The position numbers and the translations under genes are program-made. Under the pieces are notes generated by a model that saw only the letters and a list, made by a program, of their open reading frames with translations, ran no database searches and had not been told where the DNA came from. A stretch of 64,000 nt of DNA, from positions 2,782 through 66,781 of the forward strand of contig CAJUEI010000003.1 of the NCBI GenBank assembly GCA_910585255.1, in the 5' to 3' direction. The stretch's first letter is position 1, and the number at the start of each line of letters is the position of its first letter. This DNA comes from an uncultured Lachnospiraceae bacterium. GTDB taxonomy: Bacteria; Bacillota; Clostridia; Lachnospirales; Lachnospiraceae. Below, piece by piece: positions 35,239 through 60,997 of this stretch.

Positions 35239-35574
35239 ATGTATGATAATATAAAAAAATTGGAACAACAAATAGATGATATTGCTGTTGGATATTTATT
35301 TAGACAAGAAAGAAAGAATATAGAATTAGTAAAGAAGATTGTTCCACAAATACAAGAATTTGTTTTTTGGTTTTTAAATGGGAATAGATATGGGATAGAA
35401 GAAAAATTATACAAAGATTTGAGTAATAATTTGATTTATATTTTAGAGGATATATTGGAAGCTTTAGAACAGGGAGATAGAGTACTTTTGCATGATGCTT
35501 TAACATATGGATTGAAAGAATATTTATTATTATTTTTACAAAAGAAGGAGGATAACATAAATGAATATATATGA
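35239..35574 (+). CDS. Hypothetical 111-aa helical protein, translationally coupled to the Maf-like gene
   Basis: The ORF overlaps the next gene by 14 nt. I recognised no family. Confidence 0.4.
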   Translation: MYDNIKKLEQQIDDIAVGYLFRQERKNIELVKKIVPQIQEFVFWFLNGNRYGIEEKLYKDLSNNLIYILEDILEALEQGDRVLLHDALTYGLKEYLLLFLQKKEDNINEYI

Positions 35575-37420
35575 AAAGAATCTTAAAACATTAACTAAAT
35601 ATTATCCTCGAATAGATGAATTAATTGAAGATGCAAAGATAAATTTAAAACCGGAATTAGAGGTAATAGAAGATTATGCGGATAATAAAGAGATAATTTT
35701 AAAAGTTAAAAAAGATGGGAAAACTTTTTATTTGAATGGAAAACGAAATACACAAGAACCTGCACAGATATGGGTAGATAGTTTAGGAGAATTACAAAGC
35801 AATGCTCCAATATTTATGATGGGGATTGGAAATCCAACTTATTTACAAAGATTAGTAAATCAAGTAGAAAAAAAAATAGTAATTGTTATATATGAGCCAT
35901 CTATTCAAATATTTCTTAAATTTTTAGAGATATATGATTTAGAAAAATGGATGGATAAGCATGTGATTATATTTTGGGTAAAAGGATTAGAAGGAATGGA
36001 TGAAGAAAATATGAAGAGAATAATGGTACAACTATTAAGATACGAGATGCTGATGTATTTTAGAAGTTTAGTTTTACCCAATTATGATGTTCTATTTTCA
36101 GAAGAAGCAGTTAAATTTATGAAAATATGTAGAGATGTTGCAAAAGATCAGATAATTGAATATAACACAAATAATAAATATAATACTGTAGTAACAAAAA
36201 ATTTATTATATAATGCAAAATATTTATGTGACGGATATAAGACAACACAACTTGTAGATGTAATACCAAGAGATATTCCAGGAATAGTGGTTGCTGCAGG
36301 TCCATCTTTGAATAGGAATATTAATAATTTAAAAAAAGCAAAAGGAAAAGCATTTATTATAGCTGTGGATACTGCATTAAAACCACTTTTAAAACAAGGA
36401 ATTATGCCAGATATGTTTGTGTTAGTAGATCCTAAAAAACCATTAGATTTAGTTAGTTTAGAAGCAGTAAAAACAATTCCACTTCTTACATCAATAAGTG
36501 CATCTAGTGATATTTTACAGTTTCATACAGGAATGAAATTTTTTTACAATGAAGGATATTTATTTGCAGAAAAGATTCTTTTAAAAAGTTCATTAAAGAT
36601 TGGAAAAGTAGAGTGTGGGGGTTCAGTTGCAACAGCTGCATTTTCTTTATTATACAAAATTGGTATAAATCATATTATATTAGTTGGTCAAGATCTTGCA
36701 TATACAAATAATAAATCTCATGCAGACGGAACATTTCATGAGATTATGGAAGAAGCGGATACTAGTAATTTTATAACTGTAGAGGGAAATTTTGAGGAAA
36801 AAGTACCTACACGACCAGATTTTAAAATATATCTTGATTGGTATAATATGTATATTAAGGGCTGTAAGGAACAAGTAAAAGAATTATATGTGATTAATGC
36901 GACAGAAGGAGGTGCTAAGATTGAAAATACAGATGTAATGACCTTAGAAGATGCAATTAATCAAGAGTGTAAAAAAGAAATAAATATTCAAGAATGTTTG
37001 GAAAAACTTTCTCCTATGTTAGATGAAAAAAATAGAGAGTGGGCAAAAGAATATTTAAAAAATTTACCAAAGGATTTTTATAAATTAGTAATTAATTCTA
37101 AAAAAGCAAAAAAAATGTATCAAAAATTGGATAAGGTATGTGATAAAAAGAAAATTGATAAAAAAGAATATCAAAGTATTTTAAAAAAATTAGGAATTAT
37201 AATAAAAAATATTGAAGAACAAAGTGTATATCAGCTTATTACATTAACAATAGTTAATGCACAATGTATTTTAAAAAATGAGCAGTTTATGCAAGAAGAT
37301 ACGATACAAAAAGAAGGAAAAGAAATTGCAAGAAAAGGAATATTGTATATGGAAACTGTACAAAAATTAGCAGAATTGTTTGAAGAAATAGCAGGAGAGG
37401 CCTTTAATAATTGGAATTAA
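35561..37420 (+). CDS. Motility-accessory-factor (Maf, DUF115/MptE-like) putative flagellin glycosyltransferase
   Basis: The central IVVAAGPSLNRNI...AFIIAVDTALKPL...PDMFVLVDP...GGSVATAAFSLL...ILVGQDLAY matches the Maf/DUF115 core. Located directly after the flagellin genes. Confidence 0.75.
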   Translation: MNIYEKNLKTLTKYYPRIDELIEDAKINLKPELEVIEDYADNKEIILKVKKDGKTFYLNGKRNTQEPAQIWVDSLGELQSNAPIFMMGIGNPTYLQRLVNQVEKKIVIVIYEPSIQIFLKFLEIYDLEKWMDKHVIIFWVKGLEGMDEENMKRIMVQLLRYEMLMYFRSLVLPNYDVLFSEEAVKFMKICRDVAKDQIIEYNTNNKYNTVVTKNLLYNAKYLCDGYKTTQLVDVIPRDIPGIVVAAGPSLNRNINNLKKAKGKAFIIAVDTALKPLLKQGIMPDMFVLVDPKKPLDLVSLEAVKTIPLLTSISASSDILQFHTGMKFFYNEGYLFAEKILLKSSLKIGKVECGGSVATAAFSLLYKIGINHIILVGQDLAYTNNKSHADGTFHEIMEEADTSNFITVEGNFEEKVPTRPDFKIYLDWYNMYIKGCKEQVKELYVINATEGGAKIENTDVMTLEDAINQECKKEINIQECLEKLSPMLDEKNREWAKEYLKNLPKDFYKLVINSKKAKKMYQKLDKVCDKKKIDKKEYQSILKKLGIIIKNIEEQSVYQLITLTIVNAQCILKNEQFMQEDTIQKEGKEIARKGILYMETVQKLAELFEEIAGEAFNNWN

Positions 37421-37493: not shown

Positions 37494-38702
37494 ATGAATT
37501 ATAAAGTCATATTTTTATATAATCAAGAATTACGCCAAGAAGTTGTAGATTTATGGAATTTGTTTAGAGAAGTGGAAATGCAAGTAGAAGATAAAGAACT
37601 ATTGATTAAAATAGTTGATGAATTAAAGAAAATGGAACATATGTTAGGACTTGGATTAGAAGAAAAATTTTTTGAGATATTAAAACAATGGATTCAAGAA
37701 GATGAATGGTTAGTTGCAAAAAAGAATATATTACAGTATTTAATTAATTTATTAGAATTATTAGATTCTTTTTCATGTAAAAATATAATTGACGATAAAT
37801 TTTGTGATATATATAGATATATACTAAATTTAGGAGTAGATGGATTATATGAACAAATGATACAAGAATTTAATCAGTATTGTGAGAAGGAACCAGTAAA
37901 ATCAAGATTCTTAATGAAGTCTTATAATCGAGTGTTATACTGGGGGGGTATTGATTATGATAGAGGAAATTATGAAATGCTTAGAAATCGGGCTGAATCT
38001 TTGGTAGACAATGCTAACGAATTTATATGGATGTATTTAAAATTAAGTGATTATACATCTAAGAGAATATTAAATAACATAATTATAAATTGGATTACGT
38101 TTTCACATGAAGTTTTAGATAAAATACCTCGTAATCAATATGATCAATATTTTGATTTTGATATTATAAGTGATGCTGGTAAAGTATTTGTAGATGCAGG
38201 TGCTTGTAAAGGAGATACGATAGAGTCTTTTATAAGAAATTATAGAAATTATGAAAAAATATATTCATATGAGATAACGCCAGATACGTTTCAGATATTA
38301 TTAGGTAATGTTTCAAGGTATGAAAATGTGGATTGTAGATGTAAAGGAGTATCGAATAAGTCGGGATTAATGTATGTTACTATATGTGAAGATATAGGGG
38401 GAAATCGATTAGGAGAGAATGGAGATATAGAAGTGCCAGTTGTTACATTAGACGAGGATATTGTTGAAAAAATTGATTTTATAAAAATGGATATTGAAGG
38501 GGCAGAATATAATGCATTATTAGGAGCAAAGGGGCATATTCAGAAGGAACATCCATGTCTTGCTATAGCAGCATATCATAATAATGTTGATATTTTTCGA
38601 TTAGCAAAATTAATTTATGAGATGGATGAAAATTATAAATTTTATTATCGTTATTATGGCGGTTCATTGTATCCAAATGATTATGTATTATATGCAATTT
38701 AA
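37494..38702 (+). CDS. FkbM-family SAM-dependent methyltransferase with a ~200-aa N-terminal extension
   Basis: VFVDAGACKGDT (SAM motif I) and IDFIKMDIEGAEYNAL are typical of FkbM. Confidence 0.7.
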   Translation: MNYKVIFLYNQELRQEVVDLWNLFREVEMQVEDKELLIKIVDELKKMEHMLGLGLEEKFFEILKQWIQEDEWLVAKKNILQYLINLLELLDSFSCKNIIDDKFCDIYRYILNLGVDGLYEQMIQEFNQYCEKEPVKSRFLMKSYNRVLYWGGIDYDRGNYEMLRNRAESLVDNANEFIWMYLKLSDYTSKRILNNIIINWITFSHEVLDKIPRNQYDQYFDFDIISDAGKVFVDAGACKGDTIESFIRNYRNYEKIYSYEITPDTFQILLGNVSRYENVDCRCKGVSNKSGLMYVTICEDIGGNRLGENGDIEVPVVTLDEDIVEKIDFIKMDIEGAEYNALLGAKGHIQKEHPCLAIAAYHNNVDIFRLAKLIYEMDENYKFYYRYYGGSLYPNDYVLYAI

Positions 38703-38854: not shown

Positions 38855-39895
38855 ATGAATAGATATGATGAATTATATAATTTTAGAATTGCTTCCCGAA
38901 AGGATATTGATTCTGTTATGCTGTTTTTAAAGACAGAGTGGGGAGAAAACCATATTTTAGCAAATGATAAAGAATTTTTTATCTGGCAGTATGGAAATGA
39001 ACAATATGGAGATCATAGTACCATTAATTTTGTATTAATGGAAGATAAAAAGGGAACTCTTGTAGGGGTAAATGGTTTTATTCCATATGCCCCGGCAGGA
39101 AAAAGACGTTATGTATCAAGTGCAATTACAAAAGTGAAATCAGATATAAAGATACCAATGGCAGGGATAGAGTTAATCAAGAGATTTAAAGAATTAGTAC
39201 CGGCAGATGCTTATTATAGTTCAGGTACAAATCCAAAAACAATGATTCCTATAGGGGCAAAAGTATTTCATTATACAACCGGAATTTTACAACAGTATTA
39301 TGTATTAAATCCTACCAGAAAGGAGTTTAAAATTGCATTTTTAAAAGAAGAATTGCTAGAGAAAAAAATGCTAAAGGATATCTGGAAATTAAGAGAAATT
39401 CTATCATTTCATGAGATAAACGAACATTATGATTTACAAAAACAATATGCTTATCAGGGGTATAAATCACCAGAATATATAGAAAAGCGTTATTTTCAGC
39501 ATCCAATTTATAAATATAAAGCATTTGGTCTATATCAGGAAGATCAGATAGAGTATAGTGGAATATTAGTAGCAAGAGAAATTCAGGTAAATGACAGTAA
39601 AATATTACGATTTGTTGACTATTTAGGAGAAATTCGTAATTTATCGGGGATCGGTGTTTCTTTACAAAATTTATTGATACAATCGGGATATGAATATGCA
39701 GATTTTGTAGTAGGTTCTATAGAAGAGGAACTATTGGAAGGTTCTGGTTTTAGATTAAGAAAAGAAGAAGCAATTATTCCTATGTATTTTGATCCATTTC
39801 TTAGAGAAAATATAGAAATTTGGTATCAAAAAAGTAAAGAGGAAATTGTAATATTTAAAGCAGACGGCGATCAGGATCGACCGAATCATCGCTAG
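38855..39895 (+). CDS. Hypothetical protein, possibly a GNAT-fold acyltransferase
   Basis: The N-terminal IASRKDIDSVMLFLKTEWGENHIL...LVGVNGFIP resembles GNAT beginnings. This is a weak assignment. Confidence 0.3.
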   Translation: MNRYDELYNFRIASRKDIDSVMLFLKTEWGENHILANDKEFFIWQYGNEQYGDHSTINFVLMEDKKGTLVGVNGFIPYAPAGKRRYVSSAITKVKSDIKIPMAGIELIKRFKELVPADAYYSSGTNPKTMIPIGAKVFHYTTGILQQYYVLNPTRKEFKIAFLKEELLEKKMLKDIWKLREILSFHEINEHYDLQKQYAYQGYKSPEYIEKRYFQHPIYKYKAFGLYQEDQIEYSGILVAREIQVNDSKILRFVDYLGEIRNLSGIGVSLQNLLIQSGYEYADFVVGSIEEELLEGSGFRLRKEEAIIPMYFDPFLRENIEIWYQKSKEEIVIFKADGDQDRPNHR

Positions 39896-39934
39896 TATCT
39901 TTTAATAGTCAAATGAAGATGTAGGAGATAAAAT

Positions 39935-41359
39935 ATGGCATTTTATAATGAATTAAGTAAGTATGGTGATAGAGCAGCATTGATAGGAGAAGAGGGAACG
40001 ACAATTACTTATCAGGAATTGGAAAATTTGTCAAATGATTTTGGGAAAATAATACCAGAAAGAGAATTGGTATTTGTTCTTTGTAGGAATATACCAGGGT
40101 CAGTGGGTGGTTATTTATCATTTTTGGCTAAAGATATTGTTCCTCTTTTATTAAGTGCAGAAATTAATAAAGATCTTTTAGAGAATTTACTTTCTATTTA
40201 TCAGCCCTCTTATTTATATGTACCAGAACAAATGAGTCAGGAATTTGATAAGTCAGAGTTGTTATATAAGAAATATGGATATTGTTTATTATGTATAGAT
40301 AGTAGAGAAGAGGTAAAATTATATCCTGATTTGGCATTGCTTCTTACTACTTCTGGCTCTACTGGGAGTCCTAAATTAGTACGTCAAAGTTATACGAATA
40401 TTCAAGCGAATGCAGAATCAATTGCTTCTTATCTTCATTTAGATGAAAGAGAACGTCCAATTACAACATTACCTATGAATTATACGTATGGGCTTTCTAT
40501 TATTAATAGTCATATTTTGGTAGGAGCAACGATTTTAATGACAGAACAGACTTTAGTAAATCGGAATTTCTGGAATTTCTTTCGTGAACAGGAAGCAACT
40601 TCATTTGGCGGAGTCCCTTATACTTATGAAATTTTAAAGAAGTTAAAATTTTTCCATATGGAACTTCCAAGTTTAAGAACATTTACACAGGCGGGAGGGA
40701 AATTACCTCCTTCTTTGCATCAGGAATTTGCGGAGTATGCAGAGGAAACAAATAAAAATTTTGTTGTAATGTATGGACAAACAGAAGCAACGGCAAGAAT
40801 GGGATATTTACCTCCAGAGTATGCATTAGAGAAAAAAGGTAGTATGGGGATTGCTATACCAGGTGGAACGCTTTGGTTAAAAGATATAGAAGGAAATGAA
40901 ATTACAGAAGCAGATAAAGTGGGAGAATTGGTATATGAGGGAAAAAATGTAACATTGGGATATGCAGAGTGTAGGGAAGATCTGCAAAAAGGGGATGAGC
41001 GTAATGGAATATTGGAAACAGGAGATATGGCAAAGCGTGATAAAGATGGATTTTTTTATATTGTGGGAAGAAAGAAACGTTTTTTAAAGATTTATGGGAA
41101 TCGTGTAAATTTAGATGAGACAGAGCGAATGATTCAGGCAGAATATTTGGACATGGATTGTGCCTGTGCAGGTATGGATGATAAATTATATGTATTTATT
41201 ACGAATCAATCAGAGGAAAGAAGAGAAGAAGTGCAGCATTTTCTTTCTAATAAGACAGGATTAAATCCAATTGCTTTTTATGTAAAGTCCATATCAGAAA
41301 TTCCAAAAAGCGATGCAGGAAAGACATTATATATAAAGTTGGAGGAGTATTATGATTGA
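39935..41359 (+). CDS. AMP-forming adenylating enzyme (acyl/aminoacyl-carrier-protein or CoA ligase, ANL superfamily)
   Basis: LLTTSGSTGSPKLV (A3), YGQTEA (A5), TGDMAKRDKDGFFYIVGRKKRFLKIYGNRV (A8) core motifs. Confidence 0.85.
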   Translation: MAFYNELSKYGDRAALIGEEGTTITYQELENLSNDFGKIIPERELVFVLCRNIPGSVGGYLSFLAKDIVPLLLSAEINKDLLENLLSIYQPSYLYVPEQMSQEFDKSELLYKKYGYCLLCIDSREEVKLYPDLALLLTTSGSTGSPKLVRQSYTNIQANAESIASYLHLDERERPITTLPMNYTYGLSIINSHILVGATILMTEQTLVNRNFWNFFREQEATSFGGVPYTYEILKKLKFFHMELPSLRTFTQAGGKLPPSLHQEFAEYAEETNKNFVVMYGQTEATARMGYLPPEYALEKKGSMGIAIPGGTLWLKDIEGNEITEADKVGELVYEGKNVTLGYAECREDLQKGDERNGILETGDMAKRDKDGFFYIVGRKKRFLKIYGNRVNLDETERMIQAEYLDMDCACAGMDDKLYVFITNQSEERREEVQHFLSNKTGLNPIAFYVKSISEIPKSDAGKTLYIKLEEYYD

Positions 41360-42431
41360 TTATAAAGAGATCTTAATGATTCCGCCTTATAAATTGGAAA
41401 AAAAAGAGAAACAAGAACAGATGAACCAGCGTATGGTAGAATTAGTTATGCATCATTATCATTCTTGTCCTGCATATAAGAATATTTTGGATGTACTGGG
41501 ATATCGGATAGAAGAAAAATTTGATTATAAACAAATGCCATATTTACCAGTACGTTTATTTAAAGATTTGGAATTAAAAAGTATTTCTTCAGAACAGATA
41601 TTTAAAACAATGACTTCTTCCGGTACAACGGGTCAAGCTGTATCAAAAATATATTTGGATAAAGAAACGGCTTCTAATCAACAAAAGACATTGGTTAAAA
41701 TTGTATCTAGCTTTTTGGGTAGAAATCGTGTGCCAATGTTAATAATGGACTGTCCTTCTGTAATAAAAGATAGAAATAAATTTTCTGCAAGAGGAGCAGG
41801 AATTCTAGGTTTTTCTATTTTCGCATCAGATAGATGGTATGCTTTTACAGACGATATGGAATTAGATTATAGTGGAATAGAAGCATTTTTAGAAAAACAT
41901 AGAGGAGAGAAAATTTTATTATTTGGTTTTACCTTTATGATTTGGCAGTTTTTTTATAAAAGATTGCTAGAAGATAAAAAGAAATTAGATTTGTCTAATG
42001 CAGTTATGATTCATGGAGGTGGATGGAAAAAGTTAATTGCAGAGTCGGTTTCAGCATCTGAATATAAGGAACAATTGCAGAGTGTATGTGGGATTTCTTC
42101 TATTCATGACTACTATGGAATGGTAGAACAGACAGGATGTATTTATATGGAGTGTGAATATGGACATTTACATGCCAGTGTTTTTTCAGATGTAATAACA
42201 AGAAGGGCAAAAGATTTTTCTATTTGTGAATATGGAGAGAAAGGAATTCTTCAGGTAATTTCGATGATACCAGAGTCTTATCCAGGTCATTCTTTATTAA
42301 CAGAAGATGAAGGGATTATTTTAGGAGAAGATGATTGTCCTTGCGGCAGAAAAGGAAAGTATTTTAAGGTAGTAGGAAGAATTAAAAATGCAGAAGTTAG
42401 GGGGTGCAGCGATACATATGAAAAGAGGTGA
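41352..42431 (+). CDS. LuxE-like acyl-protein synthetase
   Basis: MTSSGTTGQ adenylation loop, ~360 aa, immediately upstream of a LuxC-like gene. Overlaps the upstream gene by 8 nt. Confidence 0.65.
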   Translation: MIDYKEILMIPPYKLEKKEKQEQMNQRMVELVMHHYHSCPAYKNILDVLGYRIEEKFDYKQMPYLPVRLFKDLELKSISSEQIFKTMTSSGTTGQAVSKIYLDKETASNQQKTLVKIVSSFLGRNRVPMLIMDCPSVIKDRNKFSARGAGILGFSIFASDRWYAFTDDMELDYSGIEAFLEKHRGEKILLFGFTFMIWQFFYKRLLEDKKKLDLSNAVMIHGGGWKKLIAESVSASEYKEQLQSVCGISSIHDYYGMVEQTGCIYMECEYGHLHASVFSDVITRRAKDFSICEYGEKGILQVISMIPESYPGHSLLTEDEGIILGEDDCPCGRKGKYFKVVGRIKNAEVRGCSDTYEKR

Positions 42432-43602
42432 AGCAGAGTATCTATTTGGAGAAAAGGAGATTCAAGTAATTCCTATGATTCCATTTGAAGATCAGGTATG
42501 TGAATTTTTAGATCGATTATCAAAAGCGTTAAGAGAAGATTTAGAAGCAAAACAATACCCGGATATTATGACATTTGCATTTTGGATTAGAAAAGCAAAT
42601 ATTTTGAAATTAAAAACACTTTATCAAAAAAAAGAAGTACGAGTAGGAAAAGGGCTGATCTTTCATATCGCACCTTCTAATGTGCCGATTAATTTTGCTT
42701 ATACTTTTGTATTTGGTCTACTTTCAGGAAATTCTAATATTGTGAAAGTTTCTTCTAAAAGATTTATACAGACGGATCTAATCTGTAAAATAATGAATCA
42801 GCTTATTTTAGAGGGATTTGATTGGGTAGCTAAGAGAAATGCAATTGTTTTATATAGACAAGAGGAAGTAGAATTAACCAGAGAATTTTCTTATGCATGC
42901 GATGGAAGGGTGATTTGGGGTGGAGATCAGACGATAGCGGAGATAAGAAAAGCACCTTTACAGCCTCGTAGTGTAGAGATAACATTTGCTGATAGATATT
43001 CTTTTGGAATTATCTCAGCAAAGGCGATTTTAGATGCATCCGATAAAGAAAGAGTTATTTTAGCAAAGAATTTTTATAATGATACTTATTTAATGGATCA
43101 AAATGCATGTTCTACGCCGCATCTTATCTGTTGGATGGGAACAGAGGAAGAGGTAGAGGTAGCGAAGGAGTTGTTTTGGAAAGAAGTGTATCAGAAATCG
43201 AAGAGTTATCCATTAGAGGAAATAAAAGCAAGTGAAAAATATACAATATTTTGTGAGATGGCTGCTAATGGAGTATTATCTTCTTGGAAACGATATGATA
43301 ATTTTCTTTATGTTGGTCAATTATTGGAATTGCCAAAGGATATTTGCAGATTACGTGGAAAGTTTGGTTTATTTTATGAATATCATTTAAAAGATTGGAA
43401 AGAATTGTCTGGACATTTAGGAAAGAAAGTACAAACTTGTGCCATATATGGAATTGAGTCATCTGAAGTATCGGAGTGGATTGTAGAAAGTCATAGTATG
43501 GGAGTGGATCGGATTGTTCCATTTGGAAAAACATTGGATATGGGATTAATTTGGGATGGATATGATATAATTTATACATTTTCTCGTTGTATTGTATTAT
43601 AA
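42418..43602 (+). CDS. LuxC-like acyl-CoA/acyl-protein reductase (aldehyde-forming)
   Basis: IFHIAPSNVPINFAYTFVFGLLSGNSNIVKVSSK and NDTYLMDQNACSTPH resemble the LuxC family. I chose the ATG at 42418 behind AGGGGG. Confidence 0.65.
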   Translation: MKRGEAEYLFGEKEIQVIPMIPFEDQVCEFLDRLSKALREDLEAKQYPDIMTFAFWIRKANILKLKTLYQKKEVRVGKGLIFHIAPSNVPINFAYTFVFGLLSGNSNIVKVSSKRFIQTDLICKIMNQLILEGFDWVAKRNAIVLYRQEEVELTREFSYACDGRVIWGGDQTIAEIRKAPLQPRSVEITFADRYSFGIISAKAILDASDKERVILAKNFYNDTYLMDQNACSTPHLICWMGTEEEVEVAKELFWKEVYQKSKSYPLEEIKASEKYTIFCEMAANGVLSSWKRYDNFLYVGQLLELPKDICRLRGKFGLFYEYHLKDWKELSGHLGKKVQTCAIYGIESSEVSEWIVESHSMGVDRIVPFGKTLDMGLIWDGYDIIYTFSRCIVL

Positions 43603-43662: not shown

Positions 43663-45243
43663 ATGAATGAAATAGAAGTGATTGGTGTATTATGTAGTGA
43701 GATTGAGAATGAATTAATAATTTATGGAGATTATGTTTCGAATAATTTGATAGATAAAACTAATATATTGCTTCAGATTATTGATAAAGCACCAGTAGAA
43801 TATAAAGTAGCAGTAGAAAAACAATTATTAGCATTTACAACTAAAGCACAGGGATATTCAAAGGTATGGTTATATTCAGCGATAATTAGATTAACATATA
43901 ACTCGAAAATATTAGAAGAATTTTTAGATTATATTATTAAAGAAGAAAAATTTAGTGCTAATATTAAGTATTTTATTTATTATCAAATCAAGAGTACAGT
44001 ATTTTGTTATATTAATTTAGATAATGATAATACGAAATATTTAAGATGGAAATTATTAAAACAAGTAGTTGAATTATTTAAAAAAGAAATGATGGATTTA
44101 CTAATACCAATACCTGAAAAAGAAAGAAATCAAAATATGGTATTAGTGATTACAGAACAGGTATTGTCTGAAAAACATGGACCAACTAAAATAGTTTTTG
44201 ATAGGTGTAAAATTCTTATAGAAGAAATGAGGAAAAAGGTATTGTTGGTTAATACTGCAGAAATATTGTCACAAGTTGGTAGTATTCCATATTATAGTCA
44301 AGAAAAAGGAAATTATTTTGAAGAATATTTAACAAAGGAAGAATTAGATTGGAAAGGAACAAAAATTCCATATTTTCAATGTGAAAATAATATGCCTAAT
44401 ATTAATGAATTGCGAGTGTTATTACAAATGGTAAGAAATATAAAGCCAGGATTAGTTGTTACGGTTGGAGGAAGTGGTGTTTTAATAAATTTGATTGATA
44501 CAATTATCCCCGTATTGTGTATTGGATTGGGTCCGTTTGAGTTAGAAACAACAATGGTTACATGTCAAACGTTAAGTCGGTCATTAAAAGAAAAAGATAA
44601 AAAATTACTCGCTCGGATTGGAAAGGATGAGCAAAGCGTTATTCAAAGTATATTTACATCTAGCTTGCAGCCGCAGAGAATTAAAGTTACAAGAACAGAA
44701 TTAGGATTACCAGAGGATAAGTTTATTATAGTTATAGTGGGGTATCGTTTGGATACAGATATTAGTAAGGAATTTATGGAGATGTTGGATGAAGTTGTAG
44801 ATGATAGTATAGTGGTAGCTTTAATTGGTATATTTGAATCTTATAAAAGTTATATGCTGGAATTTCCAAAGCTGAGAGATAAAGTATATTTGTTAGGATT
44901 GACAAATGATATTTTAGCATGGATAGAGGTTTGTGATTTATATGTAAATCCACATCGAAAGGGAGGAGGAACTTCTGGTGTAGAAGCATTGTTCCAAGGA
45001 TTGCCTGTTGTTACAACATATTATGGAGATGTTGCGGTAAATGTTGGAGAAGATTTTTGGACAGAATCATATAAAACGATGCCAGATTTGATTAGAAAAT
45101 ATAAAGATGATAAAGATTTTTATAATCAGATGTCAGCAAAAGCAAGAATGAGAGCAAAGATTTTGTTAGATACAAGAAGTGAGTTTAAGAGTATTATAAA
45201 AGAGTTTGAATATCGAACAAGAAATAAATTACAAGACAAATAA
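43663..45243 (+). CDS. Glycosyltransferase with a GT-B C-terminal domain and an uncharacterised N-terminal region
   Basis: The C-terminal LYVNPHRKGGGTSGVEALFQGLPVVT resembles the GT1/GT4 E-x7-E region. Confidence 0.5.
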   Translation: MNEIEVIGVLCSEIENELIIYGDYVSNNLIDKTNILLQIIDKAPVEYKVAVEKQLLAFTTKAQGYSKVWLYSAIIRLTYNSKILEEFLDYIIKEEKFSANIKYFIYYQIKSTVFCYINLDNDNTKYLRWKLLKQVVELFKKEMMDLLIPIPEKERNQNMVLVITEQVLSEKHGPTKIVFDRCKILIEEMRKKVLLVNTAEILSQVGSIPYYSQEKGNYFEEYLTKEELDWKGTKIPYFQCENNMPNINELRVLLQMVRNIKPGLVVTVGGSGVLINLIDTIIPVLCIGLGPFELETTMVTCQTLSRSLKEKDKKLLARIGKDEQSVIQSIFTSSLQPQRIKVTRTELGLPEDKFIIVIVGYRLDTDISKEFMEMLDEVVDDSIVVALIGIFESYKSYMLEFPKLRDKVYLLGLTNDILAWIEVCDLYVNPHRKGGGTSGVEALFQGLPVVTTYYGDVAVNVGEDFWTESYKTMPDLIRKYKDDKDFYNQMSAKARMRAKILLDTRSEFKSIIKEFEYRTRNKLQDK

Positions 45244-45307
45244 TGTAGTATAATTTAAAATAATTATATATTAAATTAATATATATATTATATGGGAGAT
45301 ATTATTA

Positions 45308-46237
45308 ATGAAAAAAGTATTAATTTTAGGTGGAACGGGGTTTATTGGTATTAATTTGACGCTATATTTTTTAAAGAATTTTGAATATGAAATTACTGTA
45401 TTTGGTCGAAACTTGAATTACTATCCTCTAGATTTACAAGAGGATAGTCGAATAAAAATTGTTAAGGGAGAATTTAGTTCTAGTTGTGATTTTGATAGTT
45501 TGGTAAAAGAAAAAGATATTATTTTTCATTTGATTAGTACAACTGTACCAACTACTTCTAATAGAAATATTGCAAAAGAAATTGCTGAAAATATTGAAAG
45601 TACATCTGTATTGTTAGAGGCATGTTTAAAGTATAAAGTAAAAAAGGTTATATTTCTTTCAAGCGGAGGTACAGTTTATGGAATTACCAGTAATAGGAAA
45701 ATTTTTGAGGATATGCAGACAAATCCGATTACATCTTATGGATTACAAAAACTTTCTATTGAAAAACTTTTTTATTTATATTCTTATATAGGGGAATTGG
45801 ATTATCGAATTGTAAGGTTATCAAATCCTTATGGTCCTTATCAGAAAGTGAATGGATTACAAGGAGTAATTGTTAATTTTATTTATAATTTATTGTATAA
45901 TAAAGAATTACTTGTTTATGGAGATGGAAGTATAGTAAGGGATTATTTATATATAGATGATGCAATTTGTGCTATTATGAATATTTCTGGTGATAATGCG
46001 AAGGAAAAAATATACAATGTTGGAAGTGGGATAGGACTAAGTATTAATGAGATTATTATAAAAATACAACAGATTTTAGGTATAGAAGCTAAAGTGAGAT
46101 ATGTAGAAAATCGAAAAGTTGATGTACCTGTAAATATATTGGATATTAGTAGATATGAAAAGGAATTTGGTCAGGTAAATCTTACTTCATTTCGGGATGG
46201 AATATTAAAAACAACAGCATTTATAAAACAACAATAG
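45308..46237 (+). CDS. NAD-dependent sugar epimerase/dehydratase (extended SDR)
   Basis: ILGGTGFIGINL Rossmann motif and YGLQK (YxxxK). Confidence 0.8.
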   Translation: MKKVLILGGTGFIGINLTLYFLKNFEYEITVFGRNLNYYPLDLQEDSRIKIVKGEFSSSCDFDSLVKEKDIIFHLISTTVPTTSNRNIAKEIAENIESTSVLLEACLKYKVKKVIFLSSGGTVYGITSNRKIFEDMQTNPITSYGLQKLSIEKLFYLYSYIGELDYRIVRLSNPYGPYQKVNGLQGVIVNFIYNLLYNKELLVYGDGSIVRDYLYIDDAICAIMNISGDNAKEKIYNVGSGIGLSINEIIIKIQQILGIEAKVRYVENRKVDVPVNILDISRYEKEFGQVNLTSFRDGILKTTAFIKQQ

Positions 46238-46277
46238 TTATAATGTTCAAATTTTTCTAGGAAGGTAATTTATAAAT

Positions 46278-47192
46278 ATGAGAGTAATTGTTACAGGAGC
46301 GGTAGGTTTTGTTGGAAAATGGTTAGTAGATGAGTTGTTGTATCAAAAAGATGAAATAGTAATTATTGTGAGAGATATTCAATATGTTCCTGAAAACTGG
46401 AAAAATAAGTTGCATATTATAGAAATGTCATTGCAGGATTTGGATAAGTTAGAAGAGTCATATTTTCCCTGGGAGGAAGCAGATATATTTTTTCATTTAT
46501 CATGGGATGGTACATCAGGAGAACATAGAGCAGACATTTCATTGCAGTTAGAAAATATAATAAATACTTGTAATGCTGTTGAGCTTGCTGAAAAATTGAA
46601 ATGTAAGCGATTTGTAAACGCTGGTAGTATTATGGAATATGAAGCAATGCAATATATTCCACTTGAATATGCTAAACCAGGAGAAAAGTATATATATAGT
46701 ACAGCTAAGCTTGCAGCGGATTTTATTGCAAAGATAATGACTGTTAATAAATATATGGAATATATTAATGTGGTAATTTCAAATATATATGGTCCAGGTG
46801 AGCGGTCGGAGCGATTCATTAATTCTACAATCAGAAAAATGCTAAAAAATGAAAAGATTTTTTTTACGCATGCAATGCAATTGTATGATTTTATTTATAT
46901 TAAAGATGCAGTAAAAGAAATTATATTGGCAGGAAAAAAAGGAGAAAGGAATAGTGTTTATTATATTGGGAATGGAGAACCTAAGATATTAAAATATTTT
47001 ATTTTGCAGATGAAGGAAGTATTACATAGTGAGTCAGAATTATTTTTTGGTAGTATACCATTTCAAGGTGTAATGCTTACATATAAGGAGTTTGATACGA
47101 GAAAAGTATTGAAATTAGGATTTGTACCTGAAATTACATTTGAAGAAGGAATTATATTATTACAAAAATGGATTTTAGAGGAGGAAAAATGA
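46278..47192 (+). CDS. NAD(P)-dependent sugar epimerase/reductase (extended SDR)
   Basis: VTGAVGFVGKWL Rossmann motif and YSTAK (YxxxK). Confidence 0.8.
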   Translation: MRVIVTGAVGFVGKWLVDELLYQKDEIVIIVRDIQYVPENWKNKLHIIEMSLQDLDKLEESYFPWEEADIFFHLSWDGTSGEHRADISLQLENIINTCNAVELAEKLKCKRFVNAGSIMEYEAMQYIPLEYAKPGEKYIYSTAKLAADFIAKIMTVNKYMEYINVVISNIYGPGERSERFINSTIRKMLKNEKIFFTHAMQLYDFIYIKDAVKEIILAGKKGERNSVYYIGNGEPKILKYFILQMKEVLHSESELFFGSIPFQGVMLTYKEFDTRKVLKLGFVPEITFEEGIILLQKWILEEEK

Positions 47193-47749
47193 ATATTGAT
47201 TTTGAAATACAGGAACAGAAGATAGAAGGAATAAAATTGATTAATCCTTTTTATATAGAGGATAAACGGGGGTATTTTATGAAAAGTTTTGAAAAGGATA
47301 TTTTTAAAAGTTTTGGTATACAGACAGAAATATATGAAGATTTTGAATCTTATTCCATTGGGGGGGTAATACGTGGATTGCATTTTCAAACACAATATCC
47401 TCAAAGTAAACTTGTACGAGTAATAAAGGGAGAGATACGAGATGTTGTTGTAGATTTACGAAAAAATTCAAAAACTTTTGGCAAGTATATGGATATAGTG
47501 TTAAATGAAAAAAATCATTATATGTTATGGATTCCTGCAGGGTTTGCACATGGATTTGAAGTTTTATCAGAAAATGCAATTATGTCATATAAATGTTTTG
47601 GAAAATATAGAAAAGAGTATGATACAGGTATCCGATGGAATGATAAAGATATTTCAGTAGAATGGATAACTTTGAATCCGATCCTTTCAGAAAAAGATAT
47701 GTTTTTAATGACGTTTGATGAATTTGTAAGGAAATATATAGGATTATAG
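47189..47749 (+). CDS. dTDP-4-dehydrorhamnose 3,5-epimerase-like cupin (RmlC family)
   Basis: DKRGYFMKSF, RGLHFQ, KLVRVIKGEIRDVVVDLR and IPAGFAHGF motifs. I chose the ATG at 47189, which overlaps the upstream stop (ATGA). Confidence 0.85.
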   Translation: MNIDFEIQEQKIEGIKLINPFYIEDKRGYFMKSFEKDIFKSFGIQTEIYEDFESYSIGGVIRGLHFQTQYPQSKLVRVIKGEIRDVVVDLRKNSKTFGKYMDIVLNEKNHYMLWIPAGFAHGFEVLSENAIMSYKCFGKYRKEYDTGIRWNDKDISVEWITLNPILSEKDMFLMTFDEFVRKYIGL

Positions 47750-47760
47750 GAGAAAAAGAT

Positions 47761-49194
47761 ATGGATTCAAATGTTATATTTAGTATTTTTATGTGTGCAA
47801 GAAATGCTGAAAAAACAATTAATCGTGCAATAGATTCCGTGATATTTCAAAATTGTAAAAATTGGGAATTGATAATGATAGATAATGGTAGTGAAGATAA
47901 AACCTGGTTATTAATGCAAGCAGCTATGGAAAGGGATTCAAGAATACATGGAATTCATTTAGAGCATGGAATTGGTTGGCCTAAAGGGGTAAGTATATGT
48001 ATGGAATATGCTGTCGGGAAATATATGACATTTCTTGCAGCAGATGATTTTTTTGTAAGTCCAGGAAGTTTATATGCAGTAGAATGTGTGTTATCAGAAA
48101 ATCCAGATATAGTTTTCTGTGGTCATATGACAGTACAATTAAATAAAAATATGTATAATATATGTAATGGAATTATTCCGGAAAGAAAGATATATCAGGG
48201 TAAAGATAAGATTTTTGAATTGTTTGATATTATGACTAGTGTTTATTATAATTCATTTTTTCATTTTGTTAGTTTAGAGGTTCTTAGGAAAAATAAAATT
48301 GATTTTTATGAACCTTTTTATGCAGATTATGAGGGCATGACAGAAGCGATTTGTAGATCGTCTAAAATTATTGTTATAGATTATGCAATATATGCATTAA
48401 CGATTAATACTTCACAGAGTAAAGGAATGATATGGAAAAATTATGTTATGCAATGGAGAAGTGTAAAACGTACAATAATAGAAAATGGAAAATTTGATAA
48501 GGATAGATTATGTCATATTGCATTTATAATTTTTAATAATAATTTTTCAATTTTAAAAAATATGTGTTTTGGAGGGAAAATCCAAGATAAAGAAATGAAT
48601 TTTATAACTATTTCTTGTATGGAGAAGTTGAGATTTGTGGAAGAGTTATTGGAAAAAGAAGAAACAGTGGAAATGCTTTTCTTTACAAAAAGAAGATATT
48701 ATACAGAAAAAATTTTTGAATGTGCTAAATATGTATATTCTCAGGGTATATTAGCAGGAGATTCAAATAATGTAGTTAAGATAAAATGGATTGATAAACT
48801 TATATTGGGATTATGTTTTTTTGATGGAGAAAAATTTATTGATAAAACAGAGTTTTATAAACAAGACTTTCAAAATGTCTATTATGCTTTGTGCAATGAA
48901 AATAATATAGGAATGTTTGGCTATGAATTAATTAGTGTTATGCAAATATTTGTTACACCGGAAGTAGAAAAAATTTGGCTAGAAATATTTGTAAGATATA
49001 TAGACTTGATAAAACAGAAGATATATGAATTTTTGTTTATGGCGACAGAAATTAAAAAGCGTGGAAGATGGCAAGAGGTTGTGATTATTCTGAAAGAAAG
49101 TATAAGTCTCTTACAACAAATTGCACCTTATTTAGTAGAAAAAGATTTAATGCAGATTAAAAATGATTTGAAAATGGTTATTGATAGAGGATAG
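47761..49194 (+). CDS. GT2 glycosyltransferase with a ~230-aa C-terminal extension
   Basis: FSIFMCARNAEKTI, MIDNGSEDKT and LAADDF motifs. Confidence 0.7.
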   Translation: MDSNVIFSIFMCARNAEKTINRAIDSVIFQNCKNWELIMIDNGSEDKTWLLMQAAMERDSRIHGIHLEHGIGWPKGVSICMEYAVGKYMTFLAADDFFVSPGSLYAVECVLSENPDIVFCGHMTVQLNKNMYNICNGIIPERKIYQGKDKIFELFDIMTSVYYNSFFHFVSLEVLRKNKIDFYEPFYADYEGMTEAICRSSKIIVIDYAIYALTINTSQSKGMIWKNYVMQWRSVKRTIIENGKFDKDRLCHIAFIIFNNNFSILKNMCFGGKIQDKEMNFITISCMEKLRFVEELLEKEETVEMLFFTKRRYYTEKIFECAKYVYSQGILAGDSNNVVKIKWIDKLILGLCFFDGEKFIDKTEFYKQDFQNVYYALCNENNIGMFGYELISVMQIFVTPEVEKIWLEIFVRYIDLIKQKIYEFLFMATEIKKRGRWQEVVIILKESISLLQQIAPYLVEKDLMQIKNDLKMVIDRG

Positions 49195-50455: not shown

Positions 50456-50716
50456 TTAAATTTCTATTTTATATGTTTCTTTAAGAATTTCAATTCCTTT
50501 TTCATAGGAACTGAGATCAATAATATCGTCAGTATCCATTGTAATTTCAAAACTGTCTTCTAATTCTGCAATTAAGGACATATGACCGACAGAATCCCAT
50601 TCTGGAATACTCATATACTCTAAGCCAGTTAGTTTATTTTTTTCAATTGCAAATGTTTCCATAAAAGCTGCATCATATTTTTCCCTATTAGTCATAATTA
50701 AGTTCCTCTCTTTCAA
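50456..50716 (-). CDS. Acyl/peptidyl carrier protein (ACP-1)
   Basis: 86 aa, acidic. EWDSVGHMSLIAELE contains the phosphopantetheine serine context. Confidence 0.75.
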   Translation of the reverse strand: MKERNLIMTNREKYDAAFMETFAIEKNKLTGLEYMSIPEWDSVGHMSLIAELEDSFEITMDTDDIIDLSSYEKGIEILKETYKIEI

Positions 50717-54453: not shown

Positions 54454-54699
54454 ATGACAAATTATGAAAAATATGTAGAAGCATTTAAAACAGGGCTTGG
54501 CATTGATGGAGATAAGGTAACAAAGGAGTTGACATATCAATCTGTAATGGAATGGGATTCAGTAGGGCATATGGAATTAGTTGCTGAATTGGAAGAAGTA
54601 TTTAACATTTCTATGGATACGGATGATATTGTTGACTTTAATTCATTTGAGGCAGGAATAAAGATCCTTAAAAAATATAATATAAAGATTGAGGAATAA
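54454..54699 (+). CDS. Acyl/peptidyl carrier protein (ACP-2), paralogue of ACP-1
   Basis: 81 aa. EWDSVGHMELVAELEEVF...MDTDDIVDF is closely parallel to the 50456-50716 product. RBS GGAGGAAG. Confidence 0.75.
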   Translation: MTNYEKYVEAFKTGLGIDGDKVTKELTYQSVMEWDSVGHMELVAELEEVFNISMDTDDIVDFNSFEAGIKILKKYNIKIEE

Positions 54700-55446: not shown

Positions 55447-55448
55447 TT

Positions 55449-57243: not shown

Positions 57244-57247
57244 AAAT

Positions 57248-58276: not shown

Positions 58277-58291
58277 GTAGGAGGAAATGGT

Positions 58292-58765: not shown

Positions 58766-58773
58766 TAAGGGAA

Positions 58774-60953: not shown

Positions 60954-60997
60954 GTGTTTGATTAATAGATAAAAAATAGTTTAAGTTGGGAGAAAAG

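What the first reader, a model, noticed from the sequence alone, without database searches (positions are those of the whole stretch)
38855..43602. Possible GNAT-fold protein, AMP-ligase, LuxE-like and LuxC-like genes: an acid-activating, aldehyde-forming module inside a flagellin glycosylation island
LuxE activates a carboxylic acid and LuxC reduces the activated acyl group to an aldehyde. Homologues of both are tightly packed here with overlapping start and stop codons, together with a separate ANL adenylating enzyme and a possible acyltransferase. They lie between a methyltransferase and glycosyltransferases. An aldehyde is exactly the acceptor type used by the PEP-condensing NeuB-family synthase and by the TPP carboligases encoded about 8 kb downstream. 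The island may therefore build a non-canonical keto-acid or an acylated sugar. I know of no characterised flagellin glycan pathway that uses LuxC/LuxE homologues.
Basis: inference. Interest (0 to 1): 0.7.

Follow-up and report, generated by a model that had tools for sequence, protein, structure and literature searches.

The report
Flagellin-glycan acyl-tailoring gene module
Four adjacent genes in the flagellar locus of a gut Lachnospiraceae bacterium belong to a widespread, horizontally shared cassette that most likely reduces a small organic acid to an aldehyde, loads the finished acid on a carrier protein and attaches it to the sugar decorating flagellin. The cassette has been noticed in other bacteria, but its chemistry has never been worked out.

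Summary
Window 38855-43602 encodes a tandem-GNAT-fold protein, an ANL adenylating enzyme, a LuxE homologue and a LuxC homologue. They are translationally coupled and sit between Maf/FkbM and glycosyltransferase genes, downstream of two flagellin genes.

The catalytic residues of the lux acyl relay are present and invariant in 73-86 homologues. The AMP-ligase/LuxE/LuxC trio is a mobile unit with LuxE 62-69% identical across phyla. An ACP gene is present in 63 of 80 loci, and the three enzymes occur fused in other organisms.

The trio is not new to flagellin islands. It has been annotated in Aeromonas, Enterobacteriaceae and Dickeya, and it mirrors the Vibrio cholerae O1 tetronate genes. No biochemical characterisation was found.

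Most likely it builds an unusual N-acyl group. LuxE and LuxC reduce a carboxyl to an aldehyde, and neighbouring enzymes process it. The ligase loads the acid on ACP. The GNAT protein, paired elsewhere with a deacetylase, then swaps it onto a nonulosonic-acid or amino-sugar amine.

The window's NeuB is a cassette-specific paralogue.

Verdict: a new member of a known but uncharacterised kind, of moderate interest.

The parts
35561..37420 (+). Maf-type (MptE-like) flagellin nonulosonic-acid glycosyltransferase
   Evidence: Pfam MptE-like E 1.5e-40. NCBIfam PseD domain E 1.7e-25.
37494..38702 (+). FkbM-family methyltransferase
   Evidence: PF05050 E 5.9e-14. TIGR01444 above its cut-off.
38855..39895 (+). 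ORF346: a tandem-GNAT-fold protein of an undescribed family, predicted to be an acyl-ACP-dependent N-acyltransferase
   Evidence: No Pfam, NCBIfam or PDB sequence hit. 162 homologues, all named 'hypothetical'. AF2 model pLDDT 92. Foldseek matches tandem GNATs. An ACP and an AMP-ligase lie nearby in all 11 contexts examined.
39935..41359 (+). ANL adenylating enzyme, predicted acid-ACP ligase
   Evidence: PF00501 E 1.7e-40. Below every NCBIfam equivalog cut-off. The A10 lysine K463 is invariant in 71 homologues. It lies directly upstream of LuxE in 74 of 80 loci, and an ACP gene is present in 63 of 80.
41352..42431 (+). LuxE-family acyl-protein synthetase
   Evidence: PF04443 E 2.1e-51. Aligns end to end with LuxE 7xc6_E, E 6e-13. 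K226, R343 and C352 are invariant in 86 homologues.
42388..43602 (+). LuxC-family thioester reductase; the true start is probably ATG 42418
   Evidence: PF05893 E 1.1e-27. AF2 model pLDDT 88.8. The best PDB fold match is LuxC 7xc6_A, E 2.5e-15, TM 0.68. Cys241 is invariant in 73 homologues.
43663..49194 (+). Glycan-building block: GT1, two SDR epimerase/dehydratases, RmlC and GT2
   Evidence: Pfam. RmlC TIGR01221 above its cut-off.
49311..50273 (+). Polysaccharide deacetylase family protein, predicted to unmask the acceptor amine
   Evidence: PF01522 E 1.1e-16. A homologue is adjacent to ORF346 in L013, L024, L053, L088 and L089 and lies in the cluster in L085, L087 and L090.
50456..50716 (-). 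Second ACP (ACP2), the last gene of the minus-strand operon
   Evidence: 58% identical to ACP1 and carries the WDSVGHM serine motif.
50731..51771 (-). Cassette-type NeuB paralogue (PEP-aldehyde condensing enzyme)
   Evidence: PF03102 E 1.8e-74 plus SAF. Below the NeuB and PseI equivalog cut-offs. 60% identical to the Lysinibacillus cassette NeuB and 30% to its NeuC-linked NeuB.
51789..53576 (-). ALS/pyruvate-oxidase-like TPP enzyme
   Evidence: Three TPP domains. Below all NCBIfam cut-offs. Syntenic with the cassette NeuB in 12-13 of 80 loci.
53608..54084 (-). FabA/FabZ-like dehydratase
   Evidence: PF07977 E 5e-19.
54454..54699 (+). ACP1
   Evidence: NCBIfam ACP models, E 1e-8. Ser36 is invariant in 63 homologues.
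54706..57243 (+). FabG-like SDR plus split transketolase (N and C halves)
   Evidence: Pfam. The order FabG-TktN-TktC-ACP-AMPligase-LuxE-LuxC is the commonest layout in the 80 loci.
57236..61435 (+). Radical SAM/SPASM enzyme, FabZ-like, second FkbM methyltransferase, FabK-like enoyl reductase, FabZ
   Evidence: Pfam and NCBIfam. The same run lies contiguous with ORF346 and AMPligase-LuxE-LuxC in L086.

Best explanation
The four genes are the core of an acyl-tailoring module inside a flagellin glycosylation island of about 26 kb (35.5-61.5 kb) in an uncultured Lachnospiraceae bacterium.

Proposed mechanism:
1. LuxE adenylates a carboxyl group of a small, probably hydroxylated or dicarboxylic, acid and passes the acyl group to its own C-terminal Cys352.
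2. LuxC takes the acyl group on Cys241 and reduces it with NAD(P)H to an aldehyde.
3. The aldehyde is then either reduced (FabG-type SDR) or extended and tailored. The candidates are the cassette NeuB paralogue with the ALS-like TPP enzyme and FabZ, or the split transketolase with the radical-SAM enzyme, FabZ, the FabK-like reductase and the FkbM methyltransferases.
4. The AMP-ligase loads the acid on one of the two dedicated ACPs. The order of loading and reduction is not known.
5. The polysaccharide-deacetylase homologue removes an N-acetyl group from a nonulosonic acid or amino sugar.
6. The tandem-GNAT protein ORF346 transfers the new acyl group from ACP to that amine.
7. Maf and the GTs put the sugar on flagellin.

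Shown here: the family and fold assignments, the conserved catalytic residues, the conserved synteny and the gene fusions. Inferred: every chemical step, the substrate, the acceptor and the direction of flux.
For: Relay residues:
- LuxE Lys226, Arg343 and Cys352 and LuxC Cys241 align with the functional residues of the solved LuxC-LuxE complex.
- They are invariant in 86 and 73 homologues. ACP Ser36 and ligase Lys463 are invariant too.
- The LuxC model's best PDB match is LuxC itself.

The trio is one unit:
- In 80 genome loci the ligase is present in 74, LuxC in 76 and an ACP in 63, in fixed order.
- Fusions exist: LuxE-LuxC, AMP-binding-LuxE, LuxE-LuxC-AMP-binding and Fe-ADH-LuxE.

Glycan N-acylation context:
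- Immediate neighbours include GT2, GT1, DegT aminotransferases, PglD-like hexapeptide acyltransferases, Polysacc_synt_2 and NeuB.
- A Rhizobium plasmid carries the cassette with a LpxA-like acyl-ACP acyltransferase, DegT and a GT.

ORF346:
- In 11 contexts it always has an ACP and an AMP-ligase nearby, including two without LuxE/LuxC.
- A deacetylase homologue is present in 9 of the 11 and adjacent in 5.
- Nonulosonic-acid or flagellar genes are present in 10 of the 11.

Precedent and island structure:
- The V. cholerae O1 tetronate genes VC0248-0252 make 2,4-dihydroxybutanoyl for perosamine N-acylation. RfbL is described as loading it on CoA or on the carrier protein RfbK (PMC3441752, PMC12208996).
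- One database source names a 70%-identical LuxE homologue 'acyl protein synthase/acyl-CoA reductase RfbN'.
- No ketosynthase is encoded in the island.
- No terminator-like site lies on the + strand between 37.4 and 50 kb.
Against: - Nothing biochemical is known for this cassette in any organism in the searchable literature.
- The substrate is unknown.
- The window holds no canonical nonulosonic-acid pathway genes (no CMP-transferase, DegT or NeuC), so the acceptor sugar is inferred only from Maf.
- Only 7 of 80 cassette loci have a flagellin, Maf, FliD or FliS gene within 10 kb.
- In Lachnospiraceae KM106-2 the cassette sits between housekeeping genes with no transferase nearby.
- ORF346 is present in only 4 of 80 cassette loci, so other transferases must serve elsewhere.
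- There is no Fe-ADH in the window, unlike V. cholerae.
- I could not compare sequences directly with V. cholerae RfbK/L/N.
Confidence: 0.6

Rival explanations
1. Liposugar reading, as suggested in the Aeromonas and Enterobacteriaceae papers. LuxE and LuxC reduce a long-chain fatty acid made by the FabG/FabZ/FabK/ACP genes to a fatty aldehyde, and the flagellin glycan carries a lipid.
For: - Canonical LuxE/LuxC act on myristate (PMC9157457).
- The island holds an ACP, FabG-like, three FabZ-like and a FabK-like gene.
- The literature proposes a liposugar.
Against: - No ketosynthase is present in the island, so no ordinary chain elongation is possible.
- All the Fab-like proteins score below their NCBIfam equivalog cut-offs.
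- LuxC here is about 85 residues shorter than P. phosphoreum LuxC, including about 29 fewer residues after the catalytic Cys. That is the size of the C-terminal element forming the long hydrophobic cleft. This is suggestive only.
- Partner genes are transketolase, NeuB, ALS-like and LDH/MDH-like enzymes, which act on small polar substrates.
- The V. cholerae analogue makes a C4 acid.
Confidence: 0.1
2. The LuxC aldehyde is the acceptor for the NeuB paralogue, and the product is a new 3-deoxy-2-ulosonic acid sugar. That sugar is itself activated and transferred to flagellin by Maf, rather than serving as an N-acyl side chain.
For: - NeuB-AMPligase-LuxE-LuxC are contiguous in 12-13 of 80 loci.
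- The window's NeuB is the cassette paralogue, and no other NulO synthase lies in the window.
- Maf enzymes are reported to be promiscuous for ulosonic acids (abstract of PMC11339370).
Against: - An ACP and an acid-ACP ligase accompany the cassette in 63 of 80 loci, and a FabZ follows the TPP enzyme. These features point to an acyl-ACP product.
- Loci L085 and L087 carry a second, NeuC-linked NeuB for the sugar itself.
- No CMP-transferase accompanies the cassette NeuB in the window.
- ORF346 and the deacetylase have no role in this model.
Confidence: 0.15
3. The trio is only a passenger in the island. Its product goes to another surface polymer or is a free metabolite, and flagellin is not the target.
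For: - Most cassette loci lack flagellar genes within 10 kb.
- KM106-2 carries the cassette between ftsY/ilvA and recA.
- S-layer or capsule contexts are seen in L087, L088 and L090.
Against: - In this window the genes are co-directional and tightly packed between Maf/FkbM and the GTs, with no terminator-like site.
- The same gene set follows flagellin-Maf in Lysinibacillus, and LuxC is followed by flagellin and Maf genes in Roseburia zhanii L013.
Confidence: 0.1

Closest known systems
Vibrio cholerae O1 tetronate genes rfbKLMNO / wbeK-O (VC0248-VC0252)
   Same: Both are ACP plus AMP-ligase plus LuxE/LuxC-type gene sets inside a glycan locus, needed to make an unusual N-acyl group. In V. cholerae this is 2,4-dihydroxybutanoyl on perosamine. 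WbeL is 471 aa and the ligase here is 474 aa. Basis: PMC3441752, PMC12208996, a source annotation 'RfbN' on a 70%-identical LuxE homologue, and a Fe-ADH-LuxE fusion in the family. That RfbN is a LuxE-LuxC fusion and RfbM a Fe-ADH is from my own memory of Morona et al. 1995, which I could not read.
   Different: LuxE and LuxC are separate genes here. There is no Fe-ADH. The transferase is a tandem GNAT rather than RfbO. The target is presumably a flagellin glycan, not O-antigen. The island carries extra C-C bond-forming enzymes (NeuB paralogue, ALS-like, transketolase, radical SAM). The V. cholerae pathway is itself only a homology-based proposal. No direct sequence comparison was possible.
Bacterial luminescence fatty acid reductase LuxC-LuxE (P. 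phosphoreum, PDB 7XC6)
   Same: Both fall in the same Pfam families. LuxE aligns end to end, without the ANL C-terminal subdomain. Lys/Arg/C-terminal Cys of LuxE and the catalytic Cys of LuxC are conserved. The genes are adjacent and translationally coupled.
   Different: Scores fall far below the NCBIfam equivalog cut-offs (64.8 against 550, and 30.4 against 750). There is no luxA, luxB or luxD. LuxC here is about 85 residues shorter. The partners are an ACP, an AMP-ligase and sugar genes.
'Fatty-acid-synthesis-like' genes of flagellin glycosylation islands in Aeromonas (group II, orf1-5), Enterobacteriaceae and Dickeya zeae
   Same: All share the set ACP, FabG, AMP-ligase (FadD/CaiC), LuxE and LuxC. 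Dickeya also has tktA, tktB and fkbM. All lie next to flagellin or pse genes.
   Different: Those reports come from Gammaproteobacteria and rest on annotation only. The present island is from a Firmicute. It adds ORF346, the deacetylase, the cassette NeuB/TPP/FabZ operon, a second ACP and radical-SAM and FabK-like genes.
LpxC/LpxD logic in lipid A synthesis (own knowledge)
   Same: In both, a de-N-acetylase is followed by an acyl-ACP-dependent N-acyltransferase acting on a sugar amine.
   Different: The protein families are unrelated (carbohydrate esterase 4-type deacetylase and tandem GNAT here). The resemblance is one of logic only.

Membership tests
LuxE acyl-protein synthetase family (Pfam PF04443) | Profile score above the gathering cut-off | tested here: met
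   175.5 bits against 24.9, covering profile positions 21-386 of 391.
LuxE acyl-protein synthetase family (Pfam PF04443) | Catalytic Lys238/Arg355 pair and the acyl-accepting C-terminal Cys364 | tested here: met
   K226, R343 and C352 align with them. They are invariant in 86 homologues.
Luminescence LuxE orthologue (NCBIfam NF052244 equivalog) | Score above the equivalog cut-off, with the lux operon context (luxA, luxB, luxD) | tested here: not met
   64.8 bits against 550. No luciferase or LuxD family was found among the window ORFs scanned.
LuxC acyl-thioester reductase family (Pfam PF05893, ALDH superfamily) | Profile score above the cut-off, the catalytic Cys296, and an ALDH-type fold closest to LuxC | tested here: met
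   97.4 bits against 21. Cys241 aligns with Cys296 and is invariant in 73 homologues. The top Foldseek hit is 7xc6_A, E 2.5e-15.
Luminescence LuxC orthologue (NCBIfam NF052251 equivalog) | Score above the equivalog cut-off | tested here: not met
   30.4 bits against 750.
Luminescence LuxC orthologue | C-terminal segment (P460-P488) forming the long hydrophobic cleft for C14 chains | tested here: inconclusive
   The protein has about 29 fewer residues after the catalytic Cys than P. phosphoreum LuxC. No residue-level structural alignment of the C-terminus was made.
ANL adenylate-forming enzymes (PF00501) | AMP-binding profile, P-loop and the A10 lysine | tested here: met
   E 1.7e-40. TSGSTG at residue 139, and PKSDAGK with K463 invariant in 71 homologues.
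ANL adenylate-forming enzymes (PF00501) | Acceptor is ACP rather than CoA | not testable with these tools
   Context only. An ACP gene is present in 63 of 80 loci.
GNAT acyltransferase superfamily (ORF346) | Sequence match to a GNAT profile | tested here: not met
   No Pfam or NCBIfam hit. The only Pfam line (SAM_BAF, E 0.0065) is below its cut-off. No PDB sequence hit even at E 10.
GNAT acyltransferase superfamily (ORF346) | GNAT fold, here duplicated in tandem | tested here: met
   Model pLDDT 92, pTM 0.90. Foldseek finds 218 PDB hits at E<=1e-3; the 50 listed are GNAT-superfamily proteins, led by 2ozg, Eis2, NMT and MAB_4324.
V. cholerae-type tetronate (RfbKLMNO) system | ACP, acid ligase, LuxE/LuxC-type reductase and an acyltransferase in one glycan locus | tested here: met
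   All four functions are encoded in the island.
V. cholerae-type tetronate (RfbKLMNO) system | Fe-dependent alcohol dehydrogenase (RfbM) and an RfbO-type transferase | tested here: not met
   No Fe-ADH family hit in the island. The transferase is a tandem GNAT.
V. cholerae-type tetronate (RfbKLMNO) system | Direct sequence orthology to VC0248-VC0252, and a 2,4-dihydroxybutanoyl product | not tested
The product needs chemistry.

The most novel reading that the evidence does not exclude
LuxE/LuxC, the cassette-specific NeuB paralogue, the ALS/pyruvate-oxidase-like TPP enzyme, FabZ and the acid-ACP ligase together form a ketosynthase-independent route. The route builds deoxy-polyhydroxy acyl chains from an aldehyde plus PEP, or, in the transketolase variant, from an aldehyde plus a C2 ketol.

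The finished chain is swapped onto the N-acetyl position of a nonulosonic acid by a previously undescribed deacetylase plus tandem-GNAT pair.

This would explain orphan flagellin-glycan substituents such as the 2-methoxy-4,5,6-trihydroxy-hexanoyl group of Treponema denticola and the unexplained 102 Da moiety and 376 Da Pse derivative of Aeromonas piscicola.
Probability: 0.25. Interest if true: 0.7.

Novelty: new member of a known kind. Interest (0 to 1): 0.45.

Why it matters
Flagellin glycans shape motility, filament assembly and immune recognition, and their N-acyl decorations are a major source of diversity whose genetics is largely unassigned.

This cassette is abundant. The LuxE search saturated at more than 8000 hits, and the family comprises 2131 clusters at 50% identity. 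It moves between phyla of gut bacteria, including Lachnospiraceae, Oscillospiraceae, Melainabacteria, Alphaproteobacteria, Synergistota and Spirochaetales.

It has been annotated as 'fatty acid synthesis' for a decade without any chemistry. A defined minimal unit (ACP, ligase, LuxE, LuxC), a candidate transferase family (ORF346) and a candidate deacetylase partner make the question directly testable. They could also assign genes to orphan glycan masses already in the literature.

Tried and rejected
- Shewanella sfmABCDE. I recalled these as LuxC/LuxE-like, but the paper shows a PseI-like protein, FabG, a methyltransferase and an ATP-grasp enzyme, not LuxCE. Dropped.
- Morona et al. 1995 (tetronate pathway) and Kurniyati et al. 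2017 (T. denticola glycan genes) are not held in the library. The RfbM/RfbN details and the T. denticola gene content therefore remain unverified.
- The promoter and terminator scan of 35-54.7 kb was uninformative in this AT-rich DNA: 140 promoter-like sites against 133 expected, and 2 terminator-like sites against 4.7 expected.
- Sequence searches for ORF346 in Pfam, NCBIfam and PDB gave nothing. Only the fold comparison was informative.
- The Pfam SAM_BAF line for ORF346 (E 0.0065, below its cut-off) was treated as spurious.
- The Clostridium Pse survey (PMC13317340) does not mention these genes.
- I considered that the window's NeuB is the ordinary nonulosonic acid synthase. I rejected this as the simplest reading, because it groups with the TPP-linked paralogue (60%) rather than the NeuC-linked one (30%) and falls below both equivalog cut-offs.
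- A plasmid search found the cassette in Rhizobium, Ponticoccus and Deinococcus plasmids but no characterised example.

Full report
**What is there**

The window is low-GC DNA from an uncultured Lachnospiraceae bacterium. Identical proteins occur in Lachnospiraceae MAG records, for example MCX4268297 and MCX4268299.

From 27.6 kb the window encodes FlaG, FliD, FliS, a FlgN-like protein, a 1009-aa flagellin, a 402-aa flagellin, a Maf-type transferase and an FkbM methyltransferase. The four ORFs of the finding follow on the same strand:
- ORF346, 38855-39895.
- An AMP-binding enzyme, 39935-41359 (PF00501, E 1.7e-40).
- A LuxE homologue, 41352-42431 (PF04443, E 2.1e-51).
- A LuxC homologue, 42388-43602 (PF05893, E 1.1e-27).

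Ligase and LuxE overlap by 8 nt. LuxE and LuxC overlap by 14 nt if LuxC starts at the conserved Met11 (ATG 42418, with GGGGGT upstream), or by 44 nt otherwise.

Downstream lie:
- GT1, two SDR epimerases, RmlC, GT2 and a polysaccharide deacetylase.
- A minus-strand operon: FabZ-like, ALS-like TPP enzyme, NeuB and a second ACP.
- A plus-strand operon: ACP, FabG, split transketolase, radical-SAM/SPASM enzyme, FabZ-like, FkbM, FabK-like and FabZ.

No ketosynthase and no canonical nonulosonic-acid pathway gene (CMP-transferase, DegT, NeuC) is present in the 64 kb.

**The 'possible GNAT'**

ORF346 matches nothing in Pfam, NCBIfam or PDB by sequence. Its family is small: 162 hits, all named 'hypothetical', and those that carry an organism name are Firmicutes.

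An AlphaFold model built on 34 homologues is confident (pLDDT 92, pTM 0.90). Its best PDB matches are two-domain GNAT proteins: 2ozg, Eis2, N-myristoyltransferases and the tandem GNAT MAB_4324 (E 2e-10 to 1e-8, TM about 0.5). The fold call is therefore right, and the protein is a tandem GNAT of an undescribed family.

**Are LuxE and LuxC working enzymes of the lux type?**

LuxE aligns end to end with LuxE of the solved P. phosphoreum complex (7xc6_E, E 6e-13). The residues assigned functions there are Lys238, Arg355 and the acyl-carrying Cys364 (PMC9157457; PMC12041015). They correspond to Lys226, Arg343 and Cys352 here.

LuxC Cys241 aligns with the catalytic Cys296. The LuxC model (pLDDT 88.8) finds LuxC 7xc6_A as its best PDB match, ahead of all other aldehyde dehydrogenases (E 2.5e-15, TM 0.68).

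In homologues taken from 80 genome loci these residues are invariant (86 LuxE, 73 LuxC). So are the ACP serine (63 homologues) and the ligase A10 lysine (71 homologues).

Both proteins nevertheless score far below the NCBIfam equivalog cut-offs for luminescence LuxE and LuxC (64.8 against 550, and 30.4 against 750). They are family members that very probably use the same Cys-to-Cys acyl relay and reduction. They are not lux orthologues.

**The unit and its spread**

A scan of one genome per species returned 569 relatives. The 80 best have LuxE 62-69% identical to the window protein, yet they come from many lineages: Lachnospiraceae, Oscillospiraceae, Acetobacterium, Melainabacteria/Gastranaerophilales, gut Alphaproteobacteria, Smithella, Synergistota and Spirochaetales. 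This pattern indicates horizontal transfer.

Homologue counts within these loci:

| Gene | Loci of 80 |
|---|---|
| AMP-ligase | 74 |
| LuxC | 76 |
| ACP | 63 |
| FabG | 51 |
| Split transketolase | 33-36 |
| NeuB | 22 |
| FabZ | 21 |
| ALS-like TPP enzyme | 12 |

Three layouts recur:
- FabG-ACP-ligase-LuxE-LuxC.
- FabG-TktN-TktC-ACP-ligase-LuxE-LuxC.
- ACP-FabZ-TPP-NeuB-ligase-LuxE-LuxC.

The window carries one trio, both accessory sets and two ACPs, rearranged. The same genes are contiguous in Lysinibacillus (L085) and in a Lachnoclostridium MAG (L086).

A search of 1.84 billion cluster representatives found 2131 LuxE relatives, 459 of them below E 1e-30. Many are fusions: LuxE-LuxC, AMP-binding-LuxE, LuxE-LuxC-AMP-binding and Fe-ADH-LuxE. 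The three enzymes therefore act as one functional unit.

**What the unit serves**

Immediate neighbours of the cassette, with counts among 148 genes scanned, include:
- Metallo-beta-lactamase-fold proteins (12).
- LDH/MDH-type dehydrogenases (9).
- NeuB (8) and GT2 (8).
- Hexapeptide/PglD-like acyltransferases (6).
- DegT aminotransferases (5) and thioesterases (5).
- GT1 (4).

A Rhizobium plasmid has the cassette with a LpxA-like acyl-ACP acyltransferase, DegT and a GT.

Only 7 of 80 loci have a flagellin, Maf, FliD or FliS gene within 10 kb. In Lachnospiraceae KM106-2 the cassette lies between housekeeping genes. The trio is therefore a general acyl-building unit, used in several glycan contexts and not specific to flagella.

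ORF346 is the island-specific part. I examined 11 contexts: the window, L013, L024, L041, L053 and L085-L090.
- An ACP and an AMP-ligase are always nearby, including the two contexts that lack LuxE/LuxC.
- A polysaccharide-deacetylase homologue is present in 9 and directly adjacent in 5.
- Nonulosonic-acid or flagellar genes are present in 10.

This supports a swap mechanism. The deacetylase frees a sugar amine, and the tandem GNAT re-acylates it from acyl-ACP.

**The NeuB/TPP link**

The window's NeuB is 60% identical to the Lysinibacillus NeuB that sits between the TPP enzyme and the ACP. It is only 30% identical to the second Lysinibacillus NeuB, which sits next to a NeuC-like epimerase. 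It also falls below both the NeuB and PseI equivalog cut-offs.

It is therefore a cassette paralogue. The ACP, the ligase and FabZ argue that the end product is an acyl-ACP rather than a free sugar acid.

**What was already known**

The set ACP, FabG, AMP-ligase, LuxE and LuxC has been described in three earlier surveys:
- Aeromonas group II flagellin glycosylation islands (PMC7874193).
- Enterobacterial islands (PMC4875605).
- Dickeya zeae, together with tktA, tktB and fkbM (PMC7575072).

Each interpreted the genes as fatty-acid or liposugar genes. None did any biochemistry, and further full-text searches found none.

The closest functional precedent is the V. cholerae O1 tetronate gene set VC0248-0252. 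It supplies 2,4-dihydroxybutanoyl for N-acylation of perosamine. RfbL is described as loading that acid on CoA or on the carrier protein RfbK. One source names a 70%-identical LuxE homologue 'RfbN'.

**Leads, not results**

The A. piscicola glycan contains an unexplained 102 Da moiety and a 376.14 Da Pse derivative.
- 102.03 Da equals C4H6O3, a dihydroxybutanoyl residue.
- 316.13 - 42.01 + 102.03 = 376.15 (my arithmetic).

The T. denticola flagellin glycan is a 2-methoxy-4,5,6-trihydroxy-hexanoyl nonulosonic acid (PMC13439194). That acyl skeleton is what PEP plus a C3 aldehyde would give after reduction and O-methylation. A Spirochaetales MAG carries TPP-NeuB-...-ligase-LuxE-LuxC (L051). I could not test the T. 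denticola genome.

**Verdict**

This is a new, elaborate member of a known but biochemically uncharacterised kind of glycan-tailoring cassette.

Three results here appear to go beyond the literature I could search:
- The tandem-GNAT family paired with a deacetylase.
- The cassette-specific NeuB paralogue.
- The gene fusions.

Noticed in passing
window 50456-50716 (-): A second ACP gene, unannotated in the finding. It is 58% identical to the ACP at 54454-54699, carries the same WDSVGHM serine motif, and ends the minus-strand FabZ-TPP-NeuB operon. I found it through a 126-nt inverted repeat between the two ACP genes.
   Followed up: yes
window 54194-54252 / 54331-54389: A 59-nt imperfect palindrome (81% complementary, arms 78 nt apart) in the divergent intergenic region between the minus-strand FabZ operon and the plus-strand ACP-FabG-transketolase operon. 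It may be an operator or a bidirectional control site.
   Followed up: no
window 30703-33732 (+): A giant flagellin of 1009 aa, with Flagellin_N and Flagellin_C only at its ends and about 780 residues of unassigned central region, next to an ordinary 402-aa flagellin. An 898-aa flagellin also follows LuxC in a Fretibacterium locus (L047 10942-13638).
   Followed up: partly
window 1-27000 versus 28000-64000: A GC step from 0.36-0.46 to 0.26-0.33 at about 28 kb. The higher-GC part is a cell-wall polysaccharide locus (GT2s, GT87, LCP, Bac_transf, a LPG_synthase_TM protein and another ALS-like TPP enzyme at 5896-7887) followed by RecQ.
   Followed up: no
L081 (Lachnospiraceae bacterium KM106-2, AP018794.1 816122-837195): The cassette has two LuxE-LuxC pairs and a short DAHP-synthase/NeuB-like gene. 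It sits between ftsY/ilvA-like genes and recA, with no transferase or glycosyltransferase nearby. Several other loci also carry two LuxE-LuxC pairs (L033, L040, L043, L059, L061, L063).
   Followed up: partly
L082-L084 and about 9 of the 80 loci (for example L001 12224-13198): An LDH/MDH-family dehydrogenase directly follows LuxC, and a metallo-beta-lactamase-fold gene sits between the ACP and the ligase in Melainabacteria/Alphaproteobacteria-type loci. This hints at a 2-hydroxy or 2-oxo acid substrate such as malate.
   Followed up: no
window 37494-38702 and 58774-59934: Two FkbM-family methyltransferases, each with about 200-230 N-terminal residues that match no profile.
   Followed up: no
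window 1118-3760 (+): An 880-aa protein combining TPR repeats with DUF4037 and DUF4125. It is unrelated to the finding.
   Followed up: no
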